The notes below the pieces were generated by a model. The model searched no databases. It had not been told where the DNA came from and saw only the letters and a list, made by a program, of their open reading frames with translations. Below are positions 26,830 through 49,653 of a DNA stretch of 64,000 nt, piece by piece. Location: the IMG/VR virus record IMGVR_UViG_2541047860_000002; one strand, 5' to 3'. The position numbers and the translations under genes were made by a program. Numbering within the stretch: the stretch's first letter is position 1; every line of letters starts with the position of its first letter. Source of the DNA: a virus. Taxonomy: Duplodnaviria > Heunggongvirae > Uroviricota > Caudoviricetes.

Positions 26830-27092
26830 CCTCTCACTCCATTATTTACCGAATAAAAAAGCTGCGGTGCCTGGTGCCTCCAGGTGACGTTAACCAGTTA
26901 ACAATTAACGCCGGGATGTTTGACTTAACCACTAAGGAGGATTGTTTTAACTGTTCCGCGTGCGCTTAGCCGCATTCACCGCAATGGTAAGAGCACTTGG
27001 CTGGCTGGGCGGCGATGACGCCTGTACGCATTTGGTGATCCGGTTCTGCTTCCGGCATTCGCTTAATTAGCCAAATACTCTTAACGTTGCAC

Positions 27093-27179
27093 TGGCGGAG
27101 AGTAATGGAATCGAACCATCATCGCTTGCGCAATGGGACGGTTTTCAAGACCGCTTGAGCACCATGCTCCCTACTCTCC
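27093..27179 (-). tRNA. tRNA-Ser-like (anticodon TGA), type II
   Basis: 87 nt; 7-bp acceptor stem, CTTGAAA anticodon loop, long variable arm, CCA end; fold checked by eye only. Confidence 0.55.
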
Positions 27180-27581
27180 AGTGATTGTGATGGTCGGTGC
27201 TGAACTCCGACACAGGGTTGTAGCAAGCCCCGCAAAGCGCGCACTACTGTAGTTGCGGCACATCAGCCTGTGCATTCACCACAATGTTGAGAACACTGGT
27301 TGTCACGCTGCAACGCAACATTTATTCATAGATTGGGATATGACCCCGTTACGCCAGTGTTCTCAACGTTGTGGTGCCGGTTACGGTTCCGGCCAGGCCT
27401 CTTCCTCAACGGGGTGTTCTCCATACGGACTACCGTTTATTGGTCGTTCCTGCGGTTTATGTTGTGAAGCCAGATGCTTATCTTCTGGTTGCTTCAAAGA
27501 GCTGCACTTCATCACAACGGTAAGAGCACTCGATGCATTTAAGCCAAGCCCCATAAGGGAGAATGCCCTTACCTGTTGTGT

Positions 27582-27657
27582 TGGTGCCGGTTAACGGACT
27601 CGAACCGCTGACATCCTGCTTACAAGGCAGGCGCTCTACCAACTGAGCTAAACCGGC
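27582..27657 (-). tRNA. tRNA-Thr (anticodon TGT)
   Basis: 76 nt, canonical D and T arms, CCA end. Confidence 0.8.
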
Positions 27658-27661
27658 AATT

Positions 27662-27748
27662 TGGTGGGGAGTGATGGAGTCGAACCACCCGAGTCGCAAT
27701 GACAGTAGATTTACAGTCTACCCCGCTACCCCTACGGACTAACTCCCC
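27662..27748 (-). tRNA. tRNA-Tyr (anticodon GTA), type II
   Basis: 87 nt with long variable arm, CTGTAAA anticodon loop, CCA end. Confidence 0.7.
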
Positions 27749-27753
27749 TAAAT

Positions 27754-27830
27754 TGGCGATGGTGGGTGGATTCGAACCACCGACCGACAGCTTAGAAGGC
27801 TGCTGCTCTATCCTACTGAGCTACACCATC
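27754..27830 (-). tRNA. tRNA-Arg (anticodon TCT)
   Basis: 77 nt, CTTCTAA anticodon loop, GGTTCGAATCC T-arm, CCA end. Confidence 0.8.
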
Positions 27831-30386: not shown

Positions 30387-30701
30387 TTACTGTGTTGCAG
30401 CCTGATAAATAAGATACGCGATAAATACAGGTACGATGGCCCATTGCAGCAATGAAAGTAGCCTCATTACTGTTATTGGGGTAACTCCATCCACGTATTG
30501 TTTCTCTGACATTTTCCCTAACCAACTAACCGACAACAGTGCCGAGTTTTCCCCCAATTCCAGCTCTCTGAGAGCTTCACGGATTAACGGCGCTGTCACA
30601 GCCTTAACCGGCGTGCTCAACGTGATACTCCGCGTCCTCCCCGCATCGTCAGCGAACGCCAGACTCACATGATATTTTTTGCTCAATGCACAAACTCCCA
30701 A
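30387..30701 (-). CDS. hypothetical protein with C-terminal membrane helix
   Basis: 104-aa ORF. Confidence 0.4.
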   Translation of the reverse strand: MGVCALSKKYHVSLAFADDAGRTRSITLSTPVKAVTAPLIREALRELELGENSALLSVSWLGKMSEKQYVDGVTPITVMRLLSLLQWAIVPVFIAYLIYQAATQ

Positions 30702-30897
30702 TCATCAGCGCTTGCACTTTCCGGGGTTATGTGAACCTTATCGCCAGTAACAATATTGCGAGCTTCAAAACTTCCATTGATACGTTTCGAGATCTCAATA
30801 CATAGAGCCTGCTGCCATGAGCGACGACGAGCGATAGCATTAGTTCCTGCAGGGATAAGTTCTGCCACGTTAAGTAAACGCAAAACGATTTCTCCGT

Positions 30898-31393
30898 TTA
30901 ATCAAGACAAACATACTCCGTGATAGCTTTTATGGCTTCAGCGGCACTGCGCGCCTCAAAGCAGTAGTAACCGGCTTCAGTGAGGCGGGTCATCCAGACG
31001 AGTTGTTCGGGAGTCAGGCGATTTCTCCCATGTTTCATCTCAATGCGCATTCCGTGGTATCCCCCCACAAGCAAGGTCTATAGAAAGATCGGGATATCCC
31101 TTCTTTTGGCCCTCTGCCACCATTTTTATTGCCGTCCTTATGCCTCGCAGGCCACCGTTTGGAGTGGCGTGAGTATGCTCATACACATAACGCATATTGC
31201 GATACAACCAGTCCAGGACGCGAACCTGCTCGTAATGCTCATGGTTCCTTTTGATTAGATCTGGGTTTTTCTCCAGTTCTCTAAGAGCTGCGGCATGTGG
31301 GGATGTTTCAGAATATTCACTGCGACGCCTTCTCTTTCGCGCTATTTTTCTAACACACATATTGATAGTAAATATGCGAAATAATAACAACAA
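30898..31393 (-). pseudogene. VRR-NUC domain nuclease, frameshifted at a C6/G6 homopolymer
   Basis: N-terminal frame (track ORF 31040-31393) carries the conserved NGG and PDL motifs then stops; the C-terminal E-x-K and LTPEQ motifs continue in another frame to 30898; a 5-nt tract would restore one ORF. Confidence 0.55.
31347..31355 (-). promoter_or_regulatory. recurrent motif TTTCTAACA
   Basis: Lies within the first codons of the VRR-NUC reading frame. Confidence 0.3.
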
Positions 31394-31529
31394 CGTTAGA
31401 TTTATAAAACAAGAGAGATACTACTCAAGGATGGTCTATATGCAACAGGTCGGATTTGCTTTTAGAGTAAAGAGTGACCTTAATCAACAAGGAGGGTAAA
31501 TCGCATGGCATTTACCCAACCTGTTATTT

Positions 31530-31790
31530 TTAAAGGGTTATTTTATCCTGTTCGGATAATTCTTTGATTGTCTTGTCGATTGCGATCAACCAACCTTCAT
31601 AGGTTAAATCATCAACAAGTTCTACCAACTTATCATCGGTGTGAGGAAAGTATACCCAGCTCCAGTTCGCGGGGTTTTCTGCTTTTCGCAGCGTAAAAAC
31701 CTTCTTGTATCGGTGGAACTCAAGGACATACCCCTTCGATATGGAATATTCCTTTAGGTCTTCGACCGTAAACCTACGATTCTTTCGCAT
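31530..31790 (-). CDS. hypothetical protein
   Basis: 86-aa ORF downstream of the DarB-like gene. Confidence 0.4.
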   Translation of the reverse strand: MRKNRRFTVEDLKEYSISKGYVLEFHRYKKVFTLRKAENPANWSWVYFPHTDDKLVELVDDLTYEGWLIAIDKTIKELSEQDKITL

Positions 31791-31792: not shown

Positions 31793-32227
31793 CTACCCCA
31801 TGATTCGATATTTCTCTATAGACTCGTCGTAACTTGTGTACACGTATGGCTCTGTATCATCGGCATAAGGTGCGACTTCCAGAGCATGAACAGGATTGTA
31901 TACCGCGTCATTTTCCAGGCGATCGCTCGAATACAGATGCCCAGCCAAAACCGTAAGCGCCGGGCGACTCATTTTGTAGATCTCTGCCACATCACTATCT
32001 ACAACTTGTCCAAATGATATGTCGCCGCGCTCCAGCAATAACGTTTTAAGCGCAGGCCACCACGGCCCATAAAGGTGATAAAGCTGTGGATCTCGTTTCA
32101 GCCTTTCCACCATGCCATTCAGATATGCATCCAGAAACGCCTCTTCACTCCTGCCATTGAGCGCCTGCGGCAAAATGTCCTCAAGGTAGGATTCCGTCGG
32201 TTTTACAGTGTCAATTAGTGTCGTCAT
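31793..32227 (-). CDS. hypothetical protein
   Basis: 144-aa acidic ORF immediately after the DarB-like gene terminator. Confidence 0.45.
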   Translation of the reverse strand: MTTLIDTVKPTESYLEDILPQALNGRSEEAFLDAYLNGMVERLKRDPQLYHLYGPWWPALKTLLLERGDISFGQVVDSDVAEIYKMSRPALTVLAGHLYSSDRLENDAVYNPVHALEVAPYADDTEPYVYTSYDESIEKYRIMG

Positions 32228-32263
32228 TCAAATTCGGCCCCGGTTGGGGCCGCTCCTTATCTG

Positions 32264-35200
32264 TTAAGCCGCATCGGCGATTATTTTACGCAGTTCATCT
32301 ACCGAGTAACGCGTAGATACCATCCACGCCGGACGGTCAAAGTCCACATCCGCGACAGGATTCACTTCAAAATTCCAGAAACGCCCGCCAATCTTCTTAA
32401 TCGCGTCTTTGGCGTTCCGTATTGTCGAGGAACCTGGTTGGTCGGCAATGAGATAAACCGCGCCAACGTCCTCGCTGACGCTCCACCAGCGCCCGCGAAC
32501 ACGCGCCTTAGCGCGAATAGGCTTATCATTAACCACAATGATATAGTCATCATTTGCCGCTTCATCAGCTCTGGCTTCAGCCACTGCCGCCTGCTCTTCT
32601 CTTTTGCTTTCAGCCTGCTCAAGCCTTTCCGCGATCTCTGATTCAGTGGCCCCGCCGTTTTTCAGCGATACATAGTCCTGCCACGTTGCCGATTTGAGCG
32701 TATCCGGCAACTCATTCACATAGTCGCCATCTTTCAACTCACGGGCGCGGCGGGTAGCCATTTCTACCAGGCGATTAACAGAAACAGCATCAGCAAAATC
32801 GTCCTTACTAATGTGTTTTTCATCAAATGCATTGATGACAGCCCCCACCTTAATCCACTGTGCTGCCGGTGATTCCAGGGGGTTATCAGCCTGGACAATG
32901 GCGAGTTTCGCTCCATCTACCCCATTATTCGCCAACTGTTCCAGCGCCGCCCATCCATCTGCATCACTGAGTGATTTATATTGCTCAAACAATGCATCGC
33001 GCCAGGCCACCAGCGCAGAACGTGTTTTTTCGATCTTCGCCTTAATTTTCGCGATCTTGACCTGATTAAACATCCGTTCAATATCATCGATATTGCTAAA
33101 GGCTTTCATCCTGCCCTGGAATAAACGGTATGCCAGCACGGTCCTCCAGAATGATTCCAGACCTTCTCCGGACGGTTTACGGAACAAGCTAAGAATATCT
33201 TCAGAAGTGACTTTATTAAGCGAACGACCTGACAGACCACGCCCAGCCATCCAGTTTTCGAACTCCTTGGCAACATCATCCATCGTTGCCTGTGCGCCCC
33301 ATGCCTGCATTCCCTGGATGTAATCATACCCATACAATGCCTGGAGGAATCCCTCTCCGTCCACGATATTCAGCGGGTTATCACTGGCTTGTATTTTTGC
33401 CACTTCACGCTTCAGCGCCTCGTCGTTGCCATCAGGATATATCCATCGTTCAGGTGCTATATCCGATGCTCGCCCGATTTTTTGGCCTATCACGCCATCA
33501 TAGGTCGATGACAGCGCGATCTGCCCATCATCTGTGCGATAGGCCCAGTATTTAATAGCTGATCCACCGCCCCATGCATTACCAGGTTTACCAGCAATAA
33601 CATTCATTACCCCATTGCGAATAGCATCATAGAACTGATCGCGAGTAAGTATTGTTGATAGCTGGTGGCACTGAACACCACGCGCAGCCGTTGCGCGCGA
33701 TTCAGCAACCCCCTCTTCAAAAGTTACCGCTTCAATCACAGAGTCAAACGGCAATGTAACGATTGACCCCGGTGATCGAGCGTAACGACTTGCTCTATCC
33801 AGCCAGGCGATACGACAGATGTATTGTGCTTTTTCACCGTCAATTTTTTCCACCCGGACAATCGCTGTTGTTTCGCGATCATCAATGACTGCACGGTAAT
33901 AACTACCTTTATGCAACAGGATATTCTTGTCAGTGCGCATATATTCCTGTGGGTTCTGAATAACATCGATACTGATATCCAGCACACCAGACTTAATAGC
34001 GCGCTCCACATCACCACGAGAGCGTTTCATTATGGTATCCGCGTCTTTTGCCCTGGTGATCGCAAACCGCAGCACCCGCGCACGTTTTCTGTAGCTACTC
34101 AACTGCTCAAGCGCGTATTTTTGCCCATTCCTGTTCGTACCCGCTTTTATCAGGTCGTCAAGATTGCGCTGGTAATACTCTATCTGTTCCATCGCGCTTT
34201 TCAGTTCTGTCTCCATCATGCCGATATCTTTTCCGGCGGCGTTTGCCGCTTTCAGGTAGATATCGAGAGCATTGTTGGCCTCGCGCTGTGCTTTCAGTTT
34301 CAGACGTTCTTCACGCTCTTGCGCCTGGCGAGCCATGATTGCGCGGCGTTCTTCCGGGTTTGCCGCCAGCATAATGGCGCGTTCATCAGCATCATCCACA
34401 TCACCATTGGCGATCTCTGACATGTCGGAGGTCATCACCATCTTGATCCAGTCTTTCTTACGTTTCAGCGTATCCAGACGGAAGTCGTCGAATGTGCCTT
34501 TGCCACAATAGTAGTGAACATTGACCTTCTCTTGCGGTGAACCTACGCGCGCACCGCGCCCATTTCGTTGGTCGATACTGGCTGGTGTCCAGGGTAGTGT
34601 CAGGTGGTGGATATCGGTTGTCCCGATGTGCAGGTTAATACCTACTTCAGCCTTCTTGTTACAGATTATGATGCGCGTGCGACCTTCGTTATAGTCGGCG
34701 GCAATACCTTCCATGCCCTCAAGGCCAGCATCATTTTTAGCTGAGAGATAATCCTCATATTGGGCAAGTTTGCTGTAGTAGGTTTCCCATGCCCCTTCTT
34801 TGTATTCACCGTTTTTGTTTGGAGTAGGTTCGGTCGGCTTATTCACCTTCTTCAGCTTGATGCCGCCAGCCTGGCTAACTGTCGTCGCATTGATAATGCC
34901 AATCTCCTGCTCCGGCATTTGCAGTGCACTGGCGATAATACGGCGCAGCTTCTGGTGCTGGGCTTTTTCATCAATAAAGACGATCTGCTTACCGTTCTTC
35001 AGACCTTCACGAAGATTTTCGATCAGCGCGGCATACTTCGGCGGGATGGGGTGCGATACCTGCTGCATATCAATACCGGCAGCCGCAATGGCCTTCAGTA
35101 TTTCAGCTTCCAGTTCAATGCTGGCACGTATTTCAACATGCGTCGGATGTTCACTAAAAGCGGTCTTCACTACCTTGCTGGTACGCGTACTGACCAGCCC

Positions 35201-38200
35201 GCCAGCGCCGTCTTCCTCGGCCTCATCAACATCATCTGCCACTTTACCACCAGCTACTTTTGGCAAGGCATCAGCAATAGCTTTTACCTGGTCTGCAAGC
35301 TCAACGGGGAACTGGAATGTAATCGCACTGGCATACAGATCCGGGTCTATAGCAACCTTGTCCATGTCACGGATGATGGAGAAGATGAAATCATCCGGTT
35401 TGTCGTTAGTGATATGCCCGTTTTCATCGACTGTCAGCTCATCATTGCGACTTAACTCCTGAGCACGCTTACGAAGTTCTTCATAAGCAGACTCCTGCTC
35501 CCCTGTCATCGGGATCTGCAAGGTGTTCTCGATGATGTCGGGAATTTTAACCGTCGCTCCGACATCTGCGGCAGTCTTCAGAGTGGTCCAACGATGGAAA
35601 ATACCACGCAGGCCATCAAGGTTCTGGAAGCCCACCAGCCCCTGCTTCTCTTCCACTTCCCCGGAAATTTTCTGGACCTGAACTGTGGCTGTTTTGCCAA
35701 ACACACGAACGAAATCATCAGGCGTAATGATGCCCATGCGCATCCACTCTTCCTGCGGAATGACAGTAGACAGCATGTTGAAGGCATCAATCGGACTGTT
35801 CACCAGCGGAGTTGCCGTCAGCATGACTACACCACGTCCGTTGTTGCGTTTCATCATGTACGCAGCTTTTACAGCCATGTCGCGGGCCATCTTGGATACT
35901 GCCGGGTTAGGCAAATATGCCAGTTGTCCCGCTTCACGCCCGGCATTAAAGGAGTTGCGGTAGTTATGCCCCTCGTCGGCAATCACGCTATCGAAGTTCA
36001 TATCCTCAAAGTACGGGATATTCTGCTTCTTCGTTGTACCGGTATTCGCGGCCTGATCCTTAATCTTGTTCTTCTTCTGTGCATCACGGTGTTTGCCAGA
36101 CGCCAGGTCAAGACGCCCCATTTCCACAGCATTAAAGACAGCTTGCTGTGAGTTCTCCTCGATGGTTTTTTCTCGTAGCGGGATAGACGCGAATTGTTCT
36201 TTTGTCATGATGACCGTTCGCCAATTTGACGACGGGATCATGTTCATGCGCTGAACGATAACGGCGCTGGCGGACTCTTTCACAACATTTCTGGTAAGAG
36301 GCTGCCCGTTACTGTCGAGGCGTGGTTCGCCATTTTCATCAAGCACCGGCGCGGTCAGAATATTTCCGCTGTCATCACGAACTTCATCCAAACCGATAAA
36401 CATCATATTGGCGAAGGCATCAGCACTGTAGAAACTCTGTGCCTCGTGATACCAGTTCTGATAAACCGCCTTCGGAACAACAATACACGTGCGTTTAGTG
36501 CGACCTGTTTCGAAGTTATACGCCTCAAGCGCAAGCGCGGTCGTGGTTTTACCCAGCCCGGTACCAAATCCCATGATGCCGCGCCCATCTTCTGACAAGC
36601 GACGAACTTCTTCATTTTGATAAGTCAGAGGAATGCGCTTTCCACTAATCCCTTCCAGGCCAAGCGGTGCGTTAGAGTGCGTGAACGGAATGAAGCCATT
36701 GAATGCGTCGTTATAGTCACGGGCTATCTGATCCGCCTGCGGGTGGGTGCGTAACCAGTCGTTAAAGCTAACTTCCAGTTGAGCAATTTTATCCAGGTAC
36801 TCGTTAGCGTTCTGCCCACGCGGTTTAACACCGTTCAGGTAGTTTTCTAACTGGTTCAGGAAGCCGTCTTTATTGTTGGCCTTCTTGAACTCATTCCCGT
36901 TTTTGCCGTTTACGGTTCGTAGCTGATAGCCGGTAAATACCCCGTCCTTACCTTCGTAATCGTCCGGAGATACCAGAATGCCATCGACGACCTTCAGATC
37001 AGGTTCAGTGTACTTAAACTCGTCATAGCCCTGCTCTGCCAGGAACTCTTTTATCAAGCGGCGATCCAGCCAGCGGGCATTCAGATTAACGGTGACTTTA
37101 TTTAGTGGCGTGAAAATGCGTTTCTCTTCGATTTTCGCCAACTGACGCTCAAAGTTCGCTTTCTGCTCACCTGTTGACGCATCACGCCAGCCCACCAGCA
37201 ATGCTGTTTTGGTTGCAATATCGCCGCTGGTGGCGCGGTCCATCGGCAGCAGGCAGCCATACCCATCAATAGCGATATCATCAAATTTCGCTAGGTATTC
37301 AAGGGCCGCGTCGTCGTCCTCTGGCAATTCACCAGCAAACGCCTCACGAAAGTCGCCCAGCGTTATAGGATTAAGGGCTACATCACTGAAAAGATGTGCT
37401 ATCACTTGTTCAGGACGTGTAAAGTCAATACCGGCAGCACCATCCGTTACATCAAGTCGCCCTGCCAGAAGGTCAGAAGTGGAACCATCCTGTTTCACAT
37501 TGCCAGTGAACGTCATCCAGTTTTTAGCGCCAGCTTCAGCAAGCCCATTCAGCTTAATCGCGTGCGGTGGTCCATACTTCGCAACTTCTGCTGCCGCCAG
37601 GCGGGATGCATCTGCCAGTTTGTCATCAACGTTCACCCCCAGGTTACGCAAATCAAGTGCCTTGTTGATCAACTGCCCTATCAGCGCACCGCGCATAACG
37701 CGCTCTCTGTCTTTTTCTCGCTGCTTGCCAGCAAAGCGAATCATTGCTGCCACTTCATCACTGACAACCGATGGATAGTCGGACGCGATCGCCGATATCT
37801 GGTCCCATGACAAAGCCAGAATCCCGTTTGTTGACTGGAACGCGATCTGCAGATCGCCAAACGTCGAAACACCATATCGACTTACATCAAGCGCGGAGGA
37901 TTTGGTTGTCGTGTCCTTAACCCATTTCAGGCCATCAAACTCATGCCAGATACCGCCTACAAGGCGTTTATCGCCCACTTTCGCGCCCTGCCATGCCTGA
38001 GTAGTTACGCCGAGCAAATCCCAATTGATGCGACTATCAAAGCGACGAGATAGCGCGGTTTTCATCGACTCATTGGATACACGGCCGTCTTTTTTCACCA
38101 CTAGGGTATTGCGGAAGCTGGTACGTTCCATGTCGCCGTAAACAAACCGCTTCCCTTCGGTTGTAAACCATTTTCCTTTGAGGAAGGTATCCCAAAGGAC

Positions 38201-39100
38201 GTTTGCCGATTTGAGCGTGGCATCATCCGTGTCGGGGATCATCTCCAGGAAGGTTTCCGGGTGTTTACGCAATACCCATACGTCCACCACGGTATCTGTA
38301 CCGGATTCGCTGAACGTACCAGAAGGCATACGATGTGCGGCCAAAAATTCCGCTTTACGGCTGACTTTATCGCGCAATTTTTTGTATTTCGTACCATCGG
38401 TCATGCCATTCGGCACCACCAATACGATAAGCCCACCAGGCTTAACCTTGTCGATCGTGCGCAACACAAAATAATTGCCAACGTTCTTCTCGTTTGCATA
38501 TGCCGGATCAAGCCCGGCAACGCCGGAACGCCCTTCACCAAACGGTACGTTACCAACAGCGTGGTCATACATTGCATCTTTCGCCGCCAGCGCCTCAAAC
38601 GCCCCGATATTCACATCGTCTTCCGGGTGCAAAAGCTGGTTTATTCGACCAGAAATCGGAGACAGTTCGGCGCTGGTCATTATCATGCCCTGCCGTTTTG
38701 TCTCCTGGAAAATACCTGTGCCCGCTGATGGTTCCAGTACGTGCCCGCCATCAATACCGTAGTCAGCAAACAGATCCCATATACCTTCAGCCATAAACTG
38801 TGGCGTGTAGTATTCGTATTGGCTGCCCTCACCATCTGTCAGGCCGCCTTCACCGGTATACCCGGCAAGAATCTGACGTTGTTCGTCAGTTAATTTCGCC
38901 CCATCGAAGCCGGGCGGAAGGGAATTAAGAAGATTTACTGCGGCGTTGTTTGCTGCACGGCGTGTTTTCTGAATACTGACGCCATCGGCTTTCCTGACGC
39001 CAAAGGTCGCAACAGCACGTAATTTATGCAACCGACTAACAATTTCAATCAGTTCGCCTAAGCTGGAGGCTTCACTGATTGAATGAAGTAATTTGTCCAA
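32264..39100 (-). CDS. darB: DarB-like anti-restriction protein (N6-adenine methyltransferase plus DEAH helicase)
   Basis: 2278 aa; methyltransferase motifs (EPSAGTG, NVPFG), Walker A GFGTGLGKT, DEGH box; size and architecture match P1 DarB as recalled. Confidence 0.85.
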   Translation of the reverse strand: MDKLLHSISEASSLGELIEIVSRLHKLRAVATFGVRKADGVSIQKTRRAANNAAVNLLNSLPPGFDGAKLTDEQRQILAGYTGEGGLTDGEGSQYEYYTPQFMAEGIWDLFADYGIDGGHVLEPSAGTGIFQETKRQGMIMTSAELSPISGRINQLLHPEDDVNIGAFEALAAKDAMYDHAVGNVPFGEGRSGVAGLDPAYANEKNVGNYFVLRTIDKVKPGGLIVLVVPNGMTDGTKYKKLRDKVSRKAEFLAAHRMPSGTFSESGTDTVVDVWVLRKHPETFLEMIPDTDDATLKSANVLWDTFLKGKWFTTEGKRFVYGDMERTSFRNTLVVKKDGRVSNESMKTALSRRFDSRINWDLLGVTTQAWQGAKVGDKRLVGGIWHEFDGLKWVKDTTTKSSALDVSRYGVSTFGDLQIAFQSTNGILALSWDQISAIASDYPSVVSDEVAAMIRFAGKQREKDRERVMRGALIGQLINKALDLRNLGVNVDDKLADASRLAAAEVAKYGPPHAIKLNGLAEAGAKNWMTFTGNVKQDGSTSDLLAGRLDVTDGAAGIDFTRPEQVIAHLFSDVALNPITLGDFREAFAGELPEDDDAALEYLAKFDDIAIDGYGCLLPMDRATSGDIATKTALLVGWRDASTGEQKANFERQLAKIEEKRIFTPLNKVTVNLNARWLDRRLIKEFLAEQGYDEFKYTEPDLKVVDGILVSPDDYEGKDGVFTGYQLRTVNGKNGNEFKKANNKDGFLNQLENYLNGVKPRGQNANEYLDKIAQLEVSFNDWLRTHPQADQIARDYNDAFNGFIPFTHSNAPLGLEGISGKRIPLTYQNEEVRRLSEDGRGIMGFGTGLGKTTTALALEAYNFETGRTKRTCIVVPKAVYQNWYHEAQSFYSADAFANMMFIGLDEVRDDSGNILTAPVLDENGEPRLDSNGQPLTRNVVKESASAVIVQRMNMIPSSNWRTVIMTKEQFASIPLREKTIEENSQQAVFNAVEMGRLDLASGKHRDAQKKNKIKDQAANTGTTKKQNIPYFEDMNFDSVIADEGHNYRNSFNAGREAGQLAYLPNPAVSKMARDMAVKAAYMMKRNNGRGVVMLTATPLVNSPIDAFNMLSTVIPQEEWMRMGIITPDDFVRVFGKTATVQVQKISGEVEEKQGLVGFQNLDGLRGIFHRWTTLKTAADVGATVKIPDIIENTLQIPMTGEQESAYEELRKRAQELSRNDELTVDENGHITNDKPDDFIFSIIRDMDKVAIDPDLYASAITFQFPVELADQVKAIADALPKVAGGKVADDVDEAEEDGAGGLVSTRTSKVVKTAFSEHPTHVEIRASIELEAEILKAIAAAGIDMQQVSHPIPPKYAALIENLREGLKNGKQIVFIDEKAQHQKLRRIIASALQMPEQEIGIINATTVSQAGGIKLKKVNKPTEPTPNKNGEYKEGAWETYYSKLAQYEDYLSAKNDAGLEGMEGIAADYNEGRTRIIICNKKAEVGINLHIGTTDIHHLTLPWTPASIDQRNGRGARVGSPQEKVNVHYYCGKGTFDDFRLDTLKRKKDWIKMVMTSDMSEIANGDVDDADERAIMLAANPEERRAIMARQAQEREERLKLKAQREANNALDIYLKAANAAGKDIGMMETELKSAMEQIEYYQRNLDDLIKAGTNRNGQKYALEQLSSYRKRARVLRFAITRAKDADTIMKRSRGDVERAIKSGVLDISIDVIQNPQEYMRTDKNILLHKGSYYRAVIDDRETTAIVRVEKIDGEKAQYICRIAWLDRASRYARSPGSIVTLPFDSVIEAVTFEEGVAESRATAARGVQCHQLSTILTRDQFYDAIRNGVMNVIAGKPGNAWGGGSAIKYWAYRTDDGQIALSSTYDGVIGQKIGRASDIAPERWIYPDGNDEALKREVAKIQASDNPLNIVDGEGFLQALYGYDYIQGMQAWGAQATMDDVAKEFENWMAGRGLSGRSLNKVTSEDILSLFRKPSGEGLESFWRTVLAYRLFQGRMKAFSNIDDIERMFNQVKIAKIKAKIEKTRSALVAWRDALFEQYKSLSDADGWAALEQLANNGVDGAKLAIVQADNPLESPAAQWIKVGAVINAFDEKHISKDDFADAVSVNRLVEMATRRARELKDGDYVNELPDTLKSATWQDYVSLKNGGATESEIAERLEQAESKREEQAAVAEARADEAANDDYIIVVNDKPIRAKARVRGRWWSVSEDVGAVYLIADQPGSSTIRNAKDAIKKIGGRFWNFEVNPVADVDFDRPAWMVSTRYSVDELRKIIADAA

Positions 39101-39250
39101 AGGATTTCCCCCTCTAAACCGTAAAAATTCCGCTATGCGGTACGGTTGAGAGGGTATGGAGAATGTTATTTTCAGGGGGACGATACTACCGTCAAAATCA
39201 CATACTCCCCATAGTTTGCCTACTTATTAACCCATGACCGGGAGAAAAAT

Positions 39251-39736
39251 ATGGCAAACATTGAACCTCGCTGGCTAATTGAAGCCCGTAAGCACATTGG
39301 CCTGACTGAAATAAAAGGCGCTAAACACAACCCTGAAATCGTTCAGTTCTGGCGCGACATCAAGCGCGGCGGAATTAAAGACGATGAAACGCCGTGGTGC
39401 GCAGCATTTGTCGGTGCAATGCTGGAACGTGTAGGCATCCGCTCAACAAGATTTGAGTCGGCAAAATCCTATCTGGATTGGGGCGAGAAATTAGATACAC
39501 CGGCATACGGATGTATCGTTGTATTTACCCGCGTAGGCGGTGGGCACGTAGGCTTCGTTGTCGGACGCCGCGCCAATGGCGATCTGCTTGTCTTGGGTGG
39601 GAACCAGGGGGATGCGGTTAATATTCGCGCATTCCCAACATCAAGAGTGTCAGGCTATCGCTGGCCTGCTGGCGAACCACGCAATACCGCTCTGTTACCA
39701 GTCGGAGACGCAGCAACCTCAACTAATGAGGCATGA
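39251..39736 (+). CDS. putative cell-wall hydrolase-like phage protein
   Basis: 161 aa with a conserved Cys (WCAAFV) and His (GGGHVGFVV) suggestive of a CHAP/NlpC-P60-type fold; assignment tentative. Confidence 0.4.
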   Translation: MANIEPRWLIEARKHIGLTEIKGAKHNPEIVQFWRDIKRGGIKDDETPWCAAFVGAMLERVGIRSTRFESAKSYLDWGEKLDTPAYGCIVVFTRVGGGHVGFVVGRRANGDLLVLGGNQGDAVNIRAFPTSRVSGYRWPAGEPRNTALLPVGDAATSTNEA

Positions 39737-39741: not shown

Positions 39742-39760
39742 GCCCCGGCCAGGCCGGGGC
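39742..39760 (-). terminator. rho-independent terminator
   Basis: GCCCCGGCC-A-GGCCGGGGC hairpin with T-run on the minus strand. Confidence 0.55.
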
Positions 39761-40897: not shown

Positions 40898-41248
40898 AGT
40901 TACGGCCTCACTAACAGGTTTAACAACCTGCTACCCGCTGTCAAACAGGTGGCAGGACGTGACAGGGTTGACAGACTGGCGTTAGTGAAACCAGCAGGCC
41001 GAAGCCTCCCCATCACGCCCCACCATAATTCGGGCGTAACGCGGTTTACGGACACAAAAATACCGCAATATCGGAAATCTGCGGTTGTCCGCACTAACAT
41101 TCAGGCTGTCAAACCTGGTCGCAGAATTTGCTACGACGGCATGAATATAAGCCTGAAAACATGGAAGATCAACTAAAAAATTTCAGCAATGGATGACTTC
41201 AGTCGATGATGCAGATCATACATTCCGATTTAGAAACAGCAAATTAAT

Positions 41249-45169: not shown

Positions 45170-45233
45170 GAATCACCGCAAATTGTTTCCAGTTTTGCGG
45201 CAGCATAATCAGTATGTGATTTCAGCGGTTGGT

Positions 45234-46631
45234 TTAGTTTTCCGTACGGCAATTATTTAGAACTGTAGAATTTTCAAACATAGCAAAGTTCAGACCTTTC
45301 CCTTCGCCAAATTCACCCTCAATTTCATCAGATACAGCAGACAAAATACAACGCAGATCAACATCGCCACCGCCGAACATATCGCCCAATGCCTGTTGTT
45401 TATGAGTCAGCTCGTCGTTGATTTTTTGCGCCATTTTTTTGAATGCTGCCCCCATACGCTTCGCACTGCGATTATTTGCTACGATGAATAGCGCCAATGC
45501 CTCAGCTTCCGGTGTACTGTCGCCGAATAACCCCCTTTGGGCGATCACTTCTTCAACGGCCTGACCGTTGTCTTTGGCTTCACGTACAAGATTAATTGCT
45601 TCCTGGAGTGCTGCTATCGCCTGTGTATCCAGGCCATTAACCTGCTCTATACCGTCCACTAAGCCTGTTACTGCGTCATGGTGAGCGTCGCCAGACAGCG
45701 ACTGCATTTGCGCAAAATCGCTGGCTGCCGTATTTAATGCGGTCAGGATATTACGCATTTCCGGATCTGGCTCTTCCGACACCAGCCGAACAAGCCTTTC
45801 ATCCTTGTACGCTTTGGCAAAAATTGCATTCTGGATGCGATCGATAAGCTGTTTCGTGGGACGCCCATCGGCAGTAAGCAAGCCTGCCGTCGCTGTATCG
45901 CCAATTTCGCACAAAAACGCACGAATAAACGCATCATTGGACCGCGCCAGCAGATTTCCATCATCTGAAGGATTAAATAGCGCCATGACGCTCTCAGTGA
46001 GAAATTGCGCATCCGCATACGCTTTTTCACTTGCTGCCATCTCTTGCAGATCGCTAATGTTTGAATCGCGGGCAAATTGAGCGCGGTCTACATCTGTGAG
46101 TCTTTCTCGCACCAGTACGGGCATAGACATTTGCGAAATTTCGTCAGGATTCAGACCAAACTCTTTCGCATGGTCGATCAGGTACTGGCGATACTCATCC
46201 GCCTGTCCTTGCTCATAGGCACGCCAGATACCCATACTCCTTCCGTTGCCGGATTCAACAACGTTGTCCGGACCAACTATCGGCGCTCCGTGGCTGCTCA
46301 TACCGGAATCCGTTAATTGTGCCGGGCGTAAATTGGAGGCAATACGGTTAACCTGGAGTTTGCTGGATAGCCGGGTACGATCTCGTGGTTGGAGTTCTTC
46401 CGGGAAGGCCGGGTTAATCGTACCGTCAAGGTTGTTCGAAATGATCAGACTGCTGGCATCAACGACCTTAAAAGCCGTCTTTACCTCTGCACCTTTGCTG
46501 GTGACTACGTAGCTACTTCGCCCCAAGCGTGTTTCTTTCCTCTCTAATGAAGAAACCAGAGCAATGACGCTGTTAATATCTGTGGCCCCGGAAAGCGCAG
46601 AAGTAACTGATTTGTTCAAAATACACTCCAA
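45234..46631 (-). CDS. ParB N-terminal domain-like protein
   Basis: 465 aa with ESGNGRSMG resembling the ParB/Srx nuclease-fold motif. Confidence 0.45.
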   Translation of the reverse strand: MECILNKSVTSALSGATDINSVIALVSSLERKETRLGRSSYVVTSKGAEVKTAFKVVDASSLIISNNLDGTINPAFPEELQPRDRTRLSSKLQVNRIASNLRPAQLTDSGMSSHGAPIVGPDNVVESGNGRSMGIWRAYEQGQADEYRQYLIDHAKEFGLNPDEISQMSMPVLVRERLTDVDRAQFARDSNISDLQEMAASEKAYADAQFLTESVMALFNPSDDGNLLARSNDAFIRAFLCEIGDTATAGLLTADGRPTKQLIDRIQNAIFAKAYKDERLVRLVSEEPDPEMRNILTALNTAASDFAQMQSLSGDAHHDAVTGLVDGIEQVNGLDTQAIAALQEAINLVREAKDNGQAVEEVIAQRGLFGDSTPEAEALALFIVANNRSAKRMGAAFKKMAQKINDELTHKQQALGDMFGGGDVDLRCILSAVSDEIEGEFGEGKGLNFAMFENSTVLNNCRTEN

Positions 46632-46713
46632 CTATAGAGAAAGCTGTGAGTGTAAAAAGTGTGTGATTTATGTGAGAACAGATAAGTAAAAGGGGCATTT
46701 CAGCCCCTTTTGA

Positions 46714-47082
46714 TTACCCGGCATAACCGTTAGCTTTCACCCAGCTTATGGTCTGCTCTTTAGCCTGCTCCAACGTAAGGAACTCGCCAACATAGTTTGA
46801 GATCCCACGCAGCGCATCAATAAATTCCATTTGTGTGGACTTTGTGAACACACCGCCCAGGAAGTCAGTCACTATCTTAGGGACTTCATCTACAACAGGA
46901 TCAGCCTGTTGTTGCGGTTCCGCTGCCGGTTGCGCGGCAGTCCCCAGGCCCAATTTCAGCATCACATCAACAATCTGCTTACCAATGGTGACGCGTTGCA
47001 ATACTGGCGCAGTTTTCTGCGCCTGCATTAGATCTGATAGCTCTTTACCTAATTTCAGGCGGTCTAAAACAGAGATGGTCAT
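46714..47082 (-). CDS. hypothetical protein
   Basis: 122 aa, translationally coupled to the upstream 660-aa gene. Confidence 0.4.
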   Translation of the reverse strand: MTISVLDRLKLGKELSDLMQAQKTAPVLQRVTIGKQIVDVMLKLGLGTAAQPAAEPQQQADPVVDEVPKIVTDFLGGVFTKSTQMEFIDALRGISNYVGEFLTLEQAKEQTISWVKANGYAG

Positions 47083-49064
47083 TAAACACCTCCCTGCTGA
47101 ATTTCAGCCAGAATATTGATCAGGTAGTCAACTGCTGCACCCACAGTGGCTTCGTTCTCGTCGTATCGACCTGCACTGATTAGAGCGTTTGCTGCTTCCT
47201 GCACATGATCAAGTTCAGCACTGATGACCGTCAGATCGCGGGATGTAAACTGCTCCGGCACGGATTTCAGGTACTCCAGCGCTTTATCTGCTTCCTGATC
47301 AGCTTCACTTGCTGATTCACCCGCTTCTTCTGGCTCCGACTCCTGTTCTGGTGCTGGTTGTGGTTGTGGTTGTGGTTGTGGTTGTGATTCTGGCTCAACC
47401 ACATGCTCTGTTTTTACTTCGCTTGAATGATTTTGAAGGGCGTTATACACGTCCATAATGAAAAGGTTCTCCCCATCACTAAGTGGATACGCCACGTTTG
47501 GAAACGCTTTGCGGAAAAGAATTTTCACTTGCGCCTTGAATGTTTTCAGGTCACTGCCAAACAGGTCCACATAGCCATCAATATGTTTCGACATGCTGGA
47601 CGCAACCAATTGGCCTGCAAAATCTTTCAGCTCATCTTCATCAGGAAGATAAAGCAACTCGTACTGGCTGACTTCTTCATCTGTCAGTTTACGGTCATAC
47701 GTAATGATACCGTGACGAGCATATTCGTAATACTGATCAGCCTGGTCAGGACGATCAAGCACGGCTTTATTTCCATCCGGAACAGCACCAACACCAGCTG
47801 GGCGAGATTGAAGTGCATAGTGGTATTTACCTACATCTTGGCTCTCTGGTTGTAATACTGGGTTCGTTTCGGGGTCTGTCTGTGGTGGCTCGGAGTCTTC
47901 CAACTGGCCTGGTAACACATCAACTTTATATTTATTTGCGTTATGCTCTCGGTAGGCTTTAAGTAATTTGGTTGCAGCATCTGCCAAACTGCCTCCTTTG
48001 ACAGCACTGGCATCAATACTGAATTTACCTTCAGGTGCTACTATCGTAACGAAATTGTCACTGCCGGACGTGACATAATTAACTTCAGCGCCATTATCCA
48101 GCACTGTTTTTCCGTCAATGGCAAGATTATGTTTTACATGTCGCAGCTGGTCACTAAACGCTCGTTCTTTCGTTTTTTCACCTTTAGCAGACAACAATTT
48201 ATCGCGTTTTGCTTGTAATTCCGCGTTGATGGCTTTCTGGGCATCAAGTTTTTTTTGCATCTCCGTAAGAGCAGCACGCTTTTCAGTCAGCCCACGTTGC
48301 GCAACGTCCACCTGATCAATCATTATTGACCGTTCTTCTGCCAGTTTATCTGCTTCATTGAGATAACTCTCAATATCTGCCTTCATTTTGTCCTGGCGCT
48401 CTTTTGCTTTCTTAAATTTTTCGCTGTTACGCTCAATCAAATTAGATAGCGCCTGACATACTTGGCTTAAAGAAACATCTCTCCCACCAATCGGGGCGAC
48501 AACGTGAGTTACGTTACGCTTATTAAGTAAAAACTGAAATGCAACAAGCTCGTCGTTACTCTTTATTTTTGCCCCATCAGCTGTTGGAGAGTGGAAAATT
48601 ATGCTTGTGCTCTGCCCGTCAGTAAGCGGTATCTGCGCGGTCAAAACAGGGATATTAGCTACCCGACGTACACGACCGATAATTGCACCACCAATACAAT
48701 TACGTCCATTTTCATCGGTCCCAGCTTCATCAGTCCCTGCCATAATATTCGTACCATTCAGGCCACGATTCAGCGCACGGACGAAAGCTCGCATTGTTTG
48801 AGCTAACCGAATTCTGGTTGTAGTTATGGACTCAAACATAGCTTCGTCAGACACAACCAGAATTTCATTGCCCATATAGGCAAGCTCAATATCTTCTAAG
48901 GTCGCCGCCTCAAAAATCAGGTCATCTTCGCTTAATTCTTCTGAAGACCAGCGACTTGGCATATAGCCGGGGATCGTATCAGCAAAAGTAGACTGAATAT
49001 TAATTCGTAAAGGATTGTTAATCATGCTCATCCTCCAGGCGCGCGATTTCTTCTTTAAGAGCAC
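47082..49064 (-). CDS. large virion-associated coiled-coil protein (possibly DarA-like)
   Basis: 660 aa with central coiled coil and a (QP)5 repeat; follows the holin-like pair as darA does in P1; assignment positional. Confidence 0.45.
   Translation of the reverse strand: MLLKKKSRAWRMSMINNPLRINIQSTFADTIPGYMPSRWSSEELSEDDLIFEAATLEDIELAYMGNEILVVSDEAMFESITTTRIRLAQTMRAFVRALNRGLNGTNIMAGTDEAGTDENGRNCIGGAIIGRVRRVANIPVLTAQIPLTDGQSTSIIFHSPTADGAKIKSNDELVAFQFLLNKRNVTHVVAPIGGRDVSLSQVCQALSNLIERNSEKFKKAKERQDKMKADIESYLNEADKLAEERSIMIDQVDVAQRGLTEKRAALTEMQKKLDAQKAINAELQAKRDKLLSAKGEKTKERAFSDQLRHVKHNLAIDGKTVLDNGAEVNYVTSGSDNFVTIVAPEGKFSIDASAVKGGSLADAATKLLKAYREHNANKYKVDVLPGQLEDSEPPQTDPETNPVLQPESQDVGKYHYALQSRPAGVGAVPDGNKAVLDRPDQADQYYEYARHGIITYDRKLTDEEVSQYELLYLPDEDELKDFAGQLVASSMSKHIDGYVDLFGSDLKTFKAQVKILFRKAFPNVAYPLSDGENLFIMDVYNALQNHSSEVKTEHVVEPESQPQPQPQPQPAPEQESEPEEAGESASEADQEADKALEYLKSVPEQFTSRDLTVISAELDHVQEAANALISAGRYDENEATVGAAVDYLINILAEIQQGGV
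47356..47385. repeat. hexanucleotide tandem repeat (TGGTTG)x5
   Basis: Five perfect copies encoding (QP)5 on the minus strand within the 660-aa gene. Confidence 0.9.
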
Positions 49065-49653
49065 GTGTCTTAGCTACTTCCTGAGACAAGGCAGCTTTAA
49101 CGTTACCCGTATCTTGCATTACTTTGTCTGACTTGCTCTGGAGTTTAGACAGTTTGTCGTTAGCATTAGCGATATCTTCACGGAGTGCATCACGTGATTC
49201 TTTCGCTTCAGCTAATTTCTGAGCGTTAGATTTAACTCCCTGCCGCTTCTTATTTCCGTCATCAATATTTTTTGCTGCACGAGCAAGTTTTCGAGCTAAT
49301 GACTTCTGGAAAGAAGTTGCTCCGCGATTAAATAAAGCCGCAAGAGATTGCCCCAAAGCCGACATTGTTTTTACTGGCTTGAACGGTACTGTTTTACCAT
49401 TCAGTTTGATCCCAGATATATCACCGGTATCGTTAACCTGAACTTCCATTGTCTGTTCATCAATACCAATAAGAGTAAACGTGCGCGTCATGATCCCATC
49501 TTTCTTCCTGCCATTACTTACAGGGATCACCCTCGCTATCTTGTAACCACCTTTGCTGATTTCTTTGACGAGTTTTGCCAGCCCCTTTTCGTTTAATTCA
49601 GCATAATTAAGAAGAACATAATTATTCTTATTTGACATCCCAGTCTCCTTCAC
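49018..49653 (-). CDS. hypothetical coiled-coil protein
   Basis: 211-aa ORF; probable start at an internal Met (about 49638). Confidence 0.4.
   Translation of the reverse strand: MKETGMSNKNNYVLLNYAELNEKGLAKLVKEISKGGYKIARVIPVSNGRKKDGIMTRTFTLIGIDEQTMEVQVNDTGDISGIKLNGKTVPFKPVKTMSALGQSLAALFNRGATSFQKSLARKLARAAKNIDDGNKKRQGVKSNAQKLAEAKESRDALREDIANANDKLSKLQSKSDKVMQDTGNVKAALSQEVAKTRALKEEIARLEDEHD

What the first reader, a model, noticed from the sequence alone, without database searches (positions are those of the whole stretch)
32264..39100. DarB-like 2278-aa methyltransferase-helicase with its own terminator and a downstream accessory array
The giant protein has the domain order of P1 DarB (virion-packaged anti-restriction). 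It is followed by a terminator, then two small unknowns, the frameshifted VRR-NUC gene and two more small ORFs, and is preceded by a divergent hydrolase-like gene. These neighbours are candidates for additional Dar-type or counter-defence components.
Basis: partly seen in the sequence, partly recalled or inferred. Interest (0 to 1): 0.55.

Follow-up and report, generated by a model that had tools for sequence, protein, structure and literature searches.

The report
Known DarB anti-restriction operon, D6-like phage
This is the already annotated darB-ulx anti-restriction operon of a D6-like (P1-family) plasmid prophage that is common in E. coli and Salmonella; it is ordinary for this phage family, and apart from Ulx the neighbouring genes are not extra anti-restriction parts.

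Summary
The 2278-aa ORF at 32264-39100 (-) is real. It is the DarB orthologue of a D6-like phage-plasmid: the region is 98.6% identical in DNA to Escherichia phage D6, whose orf15 is annotated 'similar to P1 darB'. The protein is 99% identical to D6 orf15 and 40% identical to P1 DarB over its full length, and all methyltransferase and SNF2 helicase motifs are intact. All six P1 Dar components have homologues in the window: DarB, Ulx, DdrB, DdrA, DarA and Hdf.

It lies between a GGAG and the ulx ATG. The same layout occurs in 26 distinct junction sequences with 11 different stems, so it looks like a structure-dependent ribosome-binding site rather than a terminator.

The neighbours resolve as follows:
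- One 'small unknown' is Ulx, a known Dar protein.
- The other is probably a divergent Lxc (hhalign 82%).
- The VRR-NUC gene is the pmgM homologue, carrying a private +1 frameshift (G6 versus G5).
- The remaining genes are orf11, pmgR and pmgS.
- The divergent hydrolase is a CHAP/TIGR02594 enzyme and the only endolysin candidate annotated in D6.

The DarB call is supported; the 'accessory Dar array' idea is mostly not. The finding is already known and of low interest.

The parts
32264..39100 (-). darB: 2278-aa DarB orthologue (TTG start, TAA stop)
   Evidence: ORF found. 40% identity to P1 DarB over the full length, E=0. 99.0% aa identity to D6 orf15, annotated 'similar to P1 darB'. PHROG 1685 matches full length.
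39011..39100 (-). Codons 1-30 of darB: counterpart of the P1 DarB capsid-targeting sequence
   Evidence: The alignment with P1 DarB starts at residue 1, and the first 100 aa are 50% identical. In P1 the first 30 residues are sufficient for packaging (PMC9024508). Function here is inferred.
38201..38833 (-). N6-adenine methyltransferase domain (aa ~90-300)
   Evidence: Pfam N6_Mtase matches aa 152-282. PDB 7eew type I HsdM matches aa 91-264. Motifs YYTP97, EPSAGTGIF123 and NVPF184 are identical in kind to P1.
34421..36643 (-). SNF2/SF2 helicase-ATPase domain (aa ~820-1560)
   Evidence: Pfam SNF2-rel_dom, ResIII and Helicase_C. Motifs GTGLGKT846, DEGH1042, TATP1095 and QRNGRGAR1511 are conserved with P1.
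32267..34300 (-). Fast-evolving DarB-specific C-terminal third (aa 1601-2278), function unknown
   Evidence: Only 20-26% identity to P1, against 29-68% upstream. No Pfam match. Only 32 clusters match among 1.84 billion representatives, and every full-length hit is 2190-2300 aa. The AF2 model is poor, pLDDT 51.5.
39110..39154 (-). 14-bp imperfect inverted repeat / hairpin in the darB leader, ending at the Shine-Dalgarno G-run
   Evidence: the repeat finder pair I2, 93% complementary. RNA fold -25.9 kcal/mol, z = -3.9. Function not tested.
32235..32252 (-).
   Evidence: Sequence read. Fold -16.5 kcal/mol. Not called by the terminator scan. The same SD-hairpin-ATG layout occurs in 26 distinct junctions with 11 different stems and U-poor tails.
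31793..32227 (-). ulx: 144-aa Ulx homologue (Dar component that aids DarB incorporation in P1)
31530..31790 (-). orf13: 86-aa protein, probably a divergent Lxc (modulator of the C1 repressor)
   Evidence: BLAST finds no similarity to P1 Lxc. It has the same position and size as lxc in every lineage. Profile-profile match has probability 81.9%, E=1.1e-5, over 78 columns end to end.
31494..31517 (-). Terminator-like hairpin ending the darB-ulx-orf13 unit (weak T tail)
   Evidence: Terminator scan. It is followed by a promoter-like site at 31408-31381 upstream of pmgM.
30898..31393 (-). pmgM homologue, a VRR-NUC nuclease gene, disrupted here by a +1 frameshift in a G-run (31061-31066)
   Evidence: The D6 copy matches Pfam VRR_NUC at 27 bits against a cut-off of 23.8. 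The window has G6; D6 and two closely related plasmids have G5. The shift separates the PD and E-x-K halves of the active site. It is the only indel inside a CDS in 17.5 kb compared with D6.
30683..30883 (-). orf11: 66-aa protein of unknown function
   Evidence: PHROG 7206, unknown function. Syntenic in D6-like elements only.
30387..30686 (-). [quoted passage not shown]
   Evidence: D6 orf10 is annotated 'similar to P1 pmgR'. PHROG 9115. P1 phenotype from PMC9024508.
29065..30288 (-). pmgS homologue (coiled-coil, putative prohead scaffold)
   Evidence: PHROG 1660 'PmgS-like head morphogenesis', 1e-146. D6 orf9.
39251..39736 (+). CHAP/TIGR02594 peptidoglycan hydrolase, probable endolysin
   Evidence: Pfam CHAP 31.4 bits against a cut-off of 26. 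TIGR02594 143 bits against 70.55. Cys (PWCAAF) and His (GGHVGF) are present and there is no N-terminal membrane segment. No other endolysin is annotated in D6, and the window has no P1 Lyz homologue.
39196..39206 (+). AATCACATACT box upstream of the hydrolase gene; candidate D6-type late promoter element
   Evidence: There are three exact copies, upstream of the hydrolase gene, prt (45211-45221) and ddrB (46658-46668). Each is followed after 3-4 nt by a TAnnnT-like hexamer. Inference only.
39742..39760 (-). Strong GC hairpin with T-run between the hydrolase gene and orf17 (true terminator-like site)
   Evidence: Terminator scan: 8 GC pairs, tail TTTTTTCA.
45234..46631 (-). ddrB homologue, half length (about 460 aa against 995 aa in P1)
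   Evidence: 64% identity to residues 2-442 of P1 DdrB. D6 orf25.
46714..47082 (-). ddrA homologue
   Evidence: 33% identity to P1 DdrA, E=4e-22.
47082..49064 (-). darA homologue
   Evidence: 38% identity to P1 DarA, E=1.5e-138.
49018..49653 (-). hdf homologue
   Evidence: 39% identity to P1 Hdf, E=2e-29.

Best explanation
The ORF is the DarB orthologue of a D6-like, P1-family phage-plasmid. It is the first gene of a conserved darB-ulx-(lxc-like) unit.

By analogy with P1, the proposed mechanism is:
- DarB is made late in infection.
- Its N-terminal signal directs it into the procapsid. This requires the Hdf/DarA scaffold-like pair, then DdrB and Ulx, and all of these have homologues in the window.
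- DarB is ejected together with the DNA.
- It then protects the incoming genome in cis from type I restriction enzymes of the EcoK/EcoB kind.

The most likely biochemical route uses both enzymatic modules. The SNF2 ATPase would track along the entering duplex. The EcoKI/TaqI-like N6-adenine methyltransferase would modify or occupy it before host HsdR can cleave.

Shown here: the orthology, the intact catalytic motifs, the complete Dar gene set and the conserved operon layout.

Inferred from P1 and untested here: the packaging, the ejection, the spectrum of restriction systems countered and the enzymatic mechanism. The mechanism is undefined even for P1.
For: - The DNA is 98.6% identical to phage D6, where the gene is annotated as a darB homologue.
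- The protein is 40% identical to P1 DarB from end to end, E=0.
- All MTase and helicase motifs are conserved, and the domain order is confirmed by Pfam.
- Ulx lies directly downstream, as in P1.
- DdrB, DdrA, DarA and Hdf homologues are present in the window.
- The darB-ulx order, with a conserved junction, is found in 88 loci from Escherichia, Pantoea, Enterobacter and Citrobacter phage-plasmids.
- P1 literature: all six Dar proteins are in the virion, the first 30 aa of DarB target it to the capsid, and darB deletion sensitises P1 to EcoB and EcoK (PMC9024508, PMC12810830, PMC11109961).
- The methylase-helicase dyad model comes from Iyer et al. 2017 (PMC5512222).
Against: - No experiment exists for this element or for D6.
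- The last 680 residues are only 20-26% identical to P1, so the range of restriction systems countered could differ.
- DdrB is only half the P1 length, so the assembly pathway may differ.
- MTase motif IV is NVPF rather than the canonical NPPF/Y, and the Pfam MTase match is weak at 21 bits. Methyl transfer is therefore not certain.
- PMC11109961 states that the DarB mechanism is undefined. It also shows that plasmid-borne darB DNA can alleviate EcoKI restriction without the protein.
Confidence: 0.88

Rival explanations
1. The giant protein is a defence enzyme of the prophage rather than a counter-defence protein. It would be a fused methylase-helicase of the type ISP restriction, DISARM DrmD or BREX-like kind, protecting the lysogen from other phages.
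For: NCBIfam gives partial matches of the helicase C-terminal lobe to DISARM DrmD, DpdE and a Dnd restriction enzyme. The methylase resembles type I HsdM.
Against: - Those matches score 28-46 bits against cut-offs of 500-1100 bits, and they cover only generic SF2 motifs.
- No nuclease domain is detected.
- The protein is orthologous along its whole length to P1 DarB, which is a virion protein.
- It sits among late and morphogenetic genes, with its packaging partners present.
Confidence: 0.03
2. One reading: the downstream small genes, the VRR-NUC gene and the divergent hydrolase are further Dar-type or counter-defence components working with DarB.
For: - They are adjacent and mostly co-oriented with darB.
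- orf13, orf11 and pmgR have no known biochemical function.
- The order darB-ulx-orf13-pmgM is conserved in most non-P1 lineages.
Against: - P1 deletions of pmgM and pmgS were among 29 knock-outs. [quoted passage not shown]
- orf13 matches Lxc, an immunity modulator.
- VRR-NUC nucleases of this kind are widespread in unrelated phages. The gene is broken in this window, although the window otherwise shows no other indel inside a coding sequence across the 17.5 kb aligned with D6.
- A hairpin and a promoter-like site separate orf13 from pmgM.
- The hydrolase is the only endolysin candidate in D6.
Confidence: 0.07
3. DarB protects DNA non-enzymatically, as an abundant internal head protein that coats or escorts the ejected DNA. 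The many Chi sites in the gene and genome would contribute to restriction alleviation, and the methylase and ATPase activities would be dispensable.
For: - P1 packages about 40 copies of DarB per head.
- In the plasmid assay of PMC11109961, catalytic-site mutants and stop-codon versions of darB still alleviated EcoKI, through Chi plus EcoKI sites.
- Chi occurs 33 times in this window against 2.0 expected, with 7 copies inside darB.
Against: - Every catalytic motif of both enzymes is conserved between lineages that share only 40% identity overall. The helicase core is the most conserved part of the protein, at 61-68%. This argues for selection on activity.
- The plasmid effect is host restriction alleviation, not the in-cis protection seen with virions.
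Confidence: 0.1
4. The hairpin after darB is a transcription terminator or attenuator that gives darB its own transcript.
For: It is a stable GC-rich stem-loop immediately after the stop codon (-16.5 kcal/mol), and it is conserved in every relative examined.
Against: - No U-tract follows it in any of the 26 variants (0-4 T in the next 8 nt, mostly A-rich).
- The terminator scan does not call it.
- GGAG always abuts its 5' side (0-1 nt away in 25 of the 26 junctions, 3 nt in L071), and the ulx ATG lies 5-9 nt from its 3' side.
- No other SD precedes ulx, so the stem is needed to bring the SD and the ATG together.
Confidence: 0.12

Closest known systems
Escherichia phage D6 orf15 / orf14 (GenBank MF356679, NC_050154; Gilcrease & Casjens 2018)
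   Same: It is essentially the same gene: 99.0% aa identity for DarB, the same 6837-nt length and TTG start, and the same neighbours in the same order.
   Different: - 101 nucleotide substitutions lie within darB.
- The window carries a +1 frameshift in the pmgM homologue.
- It lacks D6 orf23-orf24.
- Its ddrB is more divergent, at 87% nt identity.
Phage P1 DarB with Ulx (Dar anti-restriction system: Hdf, DarA, DdrA, DdrB, Ulx, DarB)
   Same: - DarB is homologous over its full length, with the same domain order and the same catalytic motifs.
- ulx lies immediately downstream behind the same SD-hairpin-ATG junction.
- All six Dar genes are present.
   Different: - Overall identity is only 40%, and 20-26% in the last 680 residues.
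- DdrB is half length.
- P1 has prt/pro divergent from darB and the EcoP1 res/mod genes after lxc. Here a hydrolase gene is divergent from darB and pmgM follows.
DarB-like 'polyvalent' methylase-helicase proteins of Bcep22-like, PEp14-like and other phages (Iyer et al. 2017)
   Same: They share the LPD36/TP-motif N6A methylase fused to an SNF2 ATPase.
   Different: They share only the dyad (25-34% identity over parts). They carry other effector domains, are often 3000-4600 aa long, and lack the P1/D6-specific C-terminal third.
Hairpin-bridged ('split') ribosome-binding sites such as phage T4 gene 38 (recalled from memory, not checked here)
   Same: The SD and start codon are about 25 nt apart in sequence but roughly 6-10 nt apart once an intervening hairpin folds.
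   Different: No expression data exist for the darB-ulx junction. Here the hairpin also directly follows the stop codon of the upstream gene, so translational coupling or mRNA stabilisation are alternatives.
P1 Lxc (Bof), modulator of the C1 repressor, as a comparison for orf13
   Same: It has the same position after ulx and a similar size (86 against 82 aa). The profile alignment runs end to end with the shared W...I/L...N/D C-terminal helix pattern.
   Different: BLAST detects no similarity, and the hhalign probability is only 82%. Function is untested.

Membership tests
P1-type DarB | Full-length sequence homology to P1 DarB | tested here: met
   BLASTP gives 943 of 2370 identities (40%), E=0, from residue 1 to the C-terminus. 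The global alignment gives 41%.
P1-type DarB | N-terminal EcoKI/TaqI-like N6-adenine methyltransferase with TP motif, followed by an SNF2/SF2 ATPase | tested here: met
   Pfam N6_Mtase, SNF2-rel_dom, ResIII and Helicase_C occur in that order. Motifs present: YYTP97, EPSAGTGIF, NVPF, GTGLGKT, DEGH, TATP, QRNGRGAR.
P1-type DarB | Encoded together with the packaging partners Hdf, DarA, DdrA, DdrB and Ulx | tested here: met
   Ulx is 46% identical to its P1 counterpart. DdrB is 64%, DdrA 33%, DarA 38% and Hdf 39% identical.
P1-type DarB | N-terminal capsid-targeting sequence, incorporation into the virion and ejection with the DNA | not testable with these tools
   Only sequence conservation of the N-terminus is seen, at 50% identity in residues 1-100. 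The function is known for P1 only.
P1-type DarB | Protection of phage DNA in cis against EcoK/EcoB-type type I restriction | not testable with these tools
   No experimental data were found for D6-like phages. The P1 phenotype comes from the literature.
Ulx | Sequence homology to P1 Ulx and position immediately 3' of darB | tested here: met
   E=7e-45. PHROG 1629. The position is conserved in 88 loci.
Intrinsic (Rho-independent) terminator | GC-rich stem-loop | tested here: met
   7-bp stem, -16.5 kcal/mol.
Intrinsic (Rho-independent) terminator | U-rich tract directly after the stem | tested here: not met
   The tail AAUUUGAA has 3 U in 8. The 26 homologous junctions have 0-4 U. The terminator scan does not call the site.
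Lxc (Bof) family, tested for orf13 | Detectable sequence or profile similarity to P1 Lxc, and the same genomic position | tested here: inconclusive
   BLAST finds nothing. hhalign gives probability 81.9%, E=1.1e-5, over 78 columns. The position and size are equivalent in all lineages.
VRR-NUC nuclease (pmgM homologue) | Pfam VRR_NUC above the gathering score with an intact PD-(D/E)xK site | tested here: not met
   The D6 copy scores 27 bits against a cut-off of 23.8. In this window a G6 run (G5 in relatives) shifts the frame between the PD and E-x-K motifs.
CHAP / TIGR02594 peptidoglycan hydrolase | Family score above the curated cut-off, with catalytic Cys and His present | tested here: met
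   CHAP scores 31.4 bits against 26. TIGR02594 scores 143.3 against 70.55. The PWCAAF and GGHVGF motifs are present.
DISARM DrmD / other defence SNF2 helicases | Score at or above the NCBIfam equivalog cut-off | tested here: not met
   Scores are 46 bits against 610 and 30 bits against 950.

The most novel reading that the evidence does not exclude
Two features not described in the D6 GenBank annotation or in the papers I could read may matter (the D6 genome paper itself was not available).

(1) The hairpin between darB and ulx may be a structure-dependent ribosome-binding site. It is conserved in shape but not in sequence across P1-, D6- and Pantoea-type phage-plasmids, and it always lies between GGAG and the ATG. 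It could couple or meter Ulx synthesis relative to DarB.

(2) The fast-evolving, family-restricted C-terminal third of DarB may be the module that determines which host defence systems are countered. If so, D6-type DarB would neutralise a different set of systems from P1 DarB.
Probability: 0.3. Interest if true: 0.35.

Novelty: already known. Interest (0 to 1): 0.12.

Why it matters
The finding matters little as a discovery.
- The gene, its Ulx partner and the rest of the Dar set are already annotated in phage D6.
- The element is common. The 9.5-kb region is at least 80% covered in 113 PLSDB plasmids and in 93 of 5426 complete E. coli genomes.

Its value is as a natural second sequence family for a system whose mechanism is still undefined in P1.
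- The P1/D6 comparison shows which parts of DarB are under strong constraint: the N-terminal signal, the methylase and the helicase core.
- It also shows which part diverges freely: the last 680 residues.
- It exposes a conserved RNA hairpin at the darB-ulx junction that could be tested easily.

Tried and rejected
- **Homologue searches with the DarB C-terminal 718 aa.** I searched it alone and as a 12-sequence profile of diverse lineages. Both searches returned only the same 12 near-identical E. coli/Salmonella fragments, so no deep alignment could be built.
- **AlphaFold of that region.** With the shallow alignment the mean pLDDT was 51.5. Only a coiled coil and a small beta domain in the first ~240 residues exceeded 70. 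No fold search was run on it.
- **P1 late-promoter pattern.** AAGTKAYT-N5-TANNNT, taken from the three annotated P1 late promoters, has no match in the window. A different box, AATCACAYACT, was found instead.
- **Column-wise covariation of the hairpin.** MAFFT alignment of the junctions is not structure-aware because stem lengths differ. I therefore tallied pairs from the loop outward in a script rather than with the count of structure pairs.
- **Papers not held.** The D6 genome paper and Piya et al. 2017 are not in the library. A search for 'olxA', the label NCBI gives some Ulx homologues, found nothing relevant.
- **pmgS against P1.** tblastn of the pmgS homologue did not reach P1 at E<=1e-5. 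That assignment rests on PHROG 1660 and the D6 annotation.
- **orf13 against P1 Lxc.** BLAST found no similarity; only the profile comparison did.

Full report
**Observation.** The window holds one uninterrupted ORF at 32264..39100 on the minus strand, 2278 codons with a TTG start.
- Pfam places an N6-adenine methyltransferase at residues 152-282. An SNF2/ResIII ATPase lies at 826-1047 and a Helicase_C lobe at 1464-1520.
Two small genes lie at 31793-32227 and 31530-31790. A VRR-NUC gene is split into two ORFs (31040-31393 and 30898-31074). Two further small ORFs and a 407-aa gene follow.
- A divergent 161-aa hydrolase gene lies at 39251-39736.

**Identity of the element.**
- The 11 kb around the ORF is 98.6% identical to Escherichia phage D6, a P1-like plasmid prophage.
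- Both D6 records annotate the same 6837-nt gene (orf15) as 'similar to P1 gene darB; defense against restriction'. They annotate the next gene (orf14) as 'similar to P1 gene ulx'.
- The window protein is 99.0% identical to D6 orf15.
- The 9.5-kb region is at least 80% covered in 113 PLSDB plasmids and in 93 of 5426 complete E. coli genomes. In the E. coli set, 369 of the 377 matching places are on plasmids.

- P1 DarB (2255 aa) aligns from residue 1 to the end at 40% identity, E=0. This also supports the TTG start.
- Identity is 29-68% per 100-residue block through residue 1600. It is highest in the helicase core and falls to 20-26% in the last 680 residues.
- The motifs YYTP, EPSAGTG(I/V)F, NVPF, GTGLGKT, DEGH, TATP and QRNGRGAR are present in both proteins.
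- The 144-aa gene downstream is 46% identical to P1 Ulx, E=7e-45.
- The other four Dar genes lie elsewhere in the window. ddrB is at 45234-46631: it is 64% identical to P1 DdrB but matches only the first 442 of P1's 995 residues. ddrA is at 46714-47082 (33%), darA at 47082-49064 (38%) and hdf at 49018-49653 (39%).
- All six Dar components therefore have homologues here.

**The 'terminator'.** The 36 nt between the darB stop and the ulx ATG read TAA-CAGAT-AAGGAG-CGGCCCC-AACC-GGGGCCG-AATTTGA-ATG.
- The stem is stable (-16.5 kcal/mol), but no U-tract follows it and the terminator scan does not call it.
- I collected 88 loci encoding Ulx relatives from virus and genome collections. They give 26 distinct junction sequences.
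- Every junction has GGAG, ending 0-1 nt before the stem in 25 of them and 3 nt before it in L071. The stem is 6-8 bp and GC-rich, with a 4-5 nt loop. A spacer of 5-9 mostly A-rich nucleotides then leads to the ATG.
- The stems fall into 11 different sequences with many CG-to-GC exchanges. The 8 nt after the stem hold 0-4 T.
- No other Shine-Dalgarno sequence precedes ulx. The hairpin therefore looks like a device that brings the SD and the start codon into register, or one that couples ulx translation to the end of darB. It does not look like a terminator. This is inference; no expression data exist. Rfam has no family at this site.
- A weaker terminator-like hairpin (31494-31517) and a promoter-like site (31408-31381) lie between orf13 and pmgM. 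The transcription unit is therefore probably darB-ulx-orf13.

**The neighbours.**
- **orf13 (86 aa).** BLAST finds no similarity to P1 Lxc. In all 88 loci, however, the gene right after ulx is either an orf13 relative (D6, Pantoea, Enterobacter and Citrobacter lineages) or Lxc (P1 lineage), and the two are of similar size. A profile of 14 orf13 relatives aligns end to end with a profile of 5 Lxc sequences (hhalign probability 81.9%, E=1.1e-5). orf13 is therefore probably a divergent Lxc, an immunity modulator.
- **VRR-NUC gene.** This is the pmgM homologue (Pfam VRR_NUC 27 bits on the D6 copy; 57% identical to the gene in a P1-like phage). The window has a run of six G at 31061-31066, where D6 and two closely related plasmids have five. 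The shift separates the two halves of the nuclease active site. It is the only indel inside a coding sequence in 17.5 kb compared with D6. I cannot tell whether it is a single sequencing error or a recent pseudogene.
- **orf11, pmgR and pmgS homologues** follow.
- **P1 knock-out data.** In P1, 29 pmg/upf knock-outs were made, including pmgM, pmgS and pmgR. Of these, 24 changed neither plating nor anti-restriction. [quoted passage not shown]
- **The divergent hydrolase.** It is a CHAP/TIGR02594 enzyme with its Cys and His in place. D6 annotates a holin and an antiholin but no other endolysin. The window has no P1 Lyz homologue. Its upstream region shares an exact AATCACATACT box with the portal gene, and ddrB carries a one-base variant, AATCACACACT. 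The gene is best read as the endolysin.

**Mechanism.** What is known comes from P1.
- All six Dar proteins are in the virion, and about 40 DarB copies are packaged per head.
- The first 30 residues of DarB target it to the capsid.
- Hdf and DarA are needed for all the others, and DdrB and Ulx are needed for DarB.
- Loss of DarB sensitises the phage to EcoB and EcoK (PMC9024508, PMC12810830, PMC11109961).
- The biochemical mechanism is explicitly 'not defined'.
- The model of Iyer et al. 2017 has the SNF2 ATPase translocating on the injected DNA while the fused EcoKI/TaqI-like methylase modifies it. It fits the strict conservation of both sets of catalytic motifs between lineages that share only 40% identity. 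I adopt it as the most likely route, with the caveats listed under evidence against.

**The C-terminal third.**
- It has no Pfam match.
- It aligns end to end across lineages, with islands of conservation.
- It matches only 32 clusters among 1.84 billion representative proteins, and every full-length hit is a DarB-sized protein.
- Structure prediction failed for lack of a deep alignment.

**Verdict.** The proposed 'accessory array' is Ulx (known), a probable Lxc, and P1-family morphogenesis/pmg genes. The 'terminator' is not one. Novelty: already known. Interest: low.

Noticed in passing
window 32228-32258 (-); loci L008-L095 just upstream of position 3001: A conserved SD-hairpin-ATG junction lies between darB and ulx. 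There are 26 distinct sequences and 11 different GC stems. GGAG abuts the stem (0-1 nt away in 25 junctions, 3 nt in one), a 5-9 nt A-rich spacer follows, and there is no U-tract. It looks like a structure-dependent ribosome-binding site.
   Followed up: yes
window 31530-31790 (-): The 86-aa 'hypothetical' orf13 sits exactly where P1 has lxc. It matches an Lxc profile end to end (hhalign 82%), so it is probably a divergent C1-repressor modulator.
   Followed up: yes
window 31061-31066: A G6 run (G5 in D6 and in two closely related plasmids) frameshifts the pmgM/VRR-NUC gene. It is the only indel inside a CDS in 17.5 kb compared with D6. It is either a sequencing error or a fresh pseudogene.
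   Followed up: yes
window 39110-39154 (-): A 14-bp imperfect inverted repeat lies in the darB leader (RNA fold -25.9 kcal/mol, z -3.9). Its 3' arm runs into the Shine-Dalgarno G-run. It may be a translational control element or a protein-binding site.
   Followed up: partly
window 39196-39206 (+), 45211-45221 (-), 46658-46668 (-): The box AATCACAYACT occurs three times exactly: upstream of the hydrolase gene, the portal gene and ddrB. Each copy is followed after 3-4 nt by a TAnnnT-like hexamer. It is a candidate late promoter of D6-type phages; the P1 late-promoter pattern has no match in the window.
   Followed up: partly
window 45234-46631 (-): The DdrB homologue is about 460 aa and matches only the N-terminal 442 residues of the 995-aa P1 DdrB. 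This segment is also only 87% identical to D6 at the DNA level, against about 98% for the flanking sequence.
   Followed up: partly
window 45222-45274: The window lacks about 1.1 kb that D6 carries between the portal gene and ddrB. That segment holds D6 orf23 and orf24, the latter a DUF4145 protein.
   Followed up: no
whole window; darB 32264-39100: Chi (GCTGGTGG) occurs 33 times in 64 kb against 2.0 expected. Seven copies lie inside darB, and only one lies beyond 44 kb. P1 is also reported as Chi-rich, with 11 sites in its darB.
   Followed up: partly
window 3598-3685 (-) and 40945-41030 (-); 41098-41150 (-): Two C4 antisense RNA genes and one a1/b1 target element (Rfam) are present. The element therefore carries two immI-type icd/antirepressor modules, as D6 does.
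   Followed up: no
window 25555-27830 (-): ARAGORN finds five tRNA genes (Met, Ser-tga, Thr, Tyr, Arg-tct) on the minus strand. The D6 record annotates Ser, Thr and Asn on the other strand, and this stretch is only about 89% identical to D6 with many indels.
   Followed up: no
window 32267-34300 (-): The last 680 residues of DarB are only 20-26% identical between D6 and P1 types. They also vary within the D6-like group: the C-terminal part is 78-91% identical in elements whose Ulx is 99% identical, which suggests mosaic exchange of this module.
   Followed up: partly
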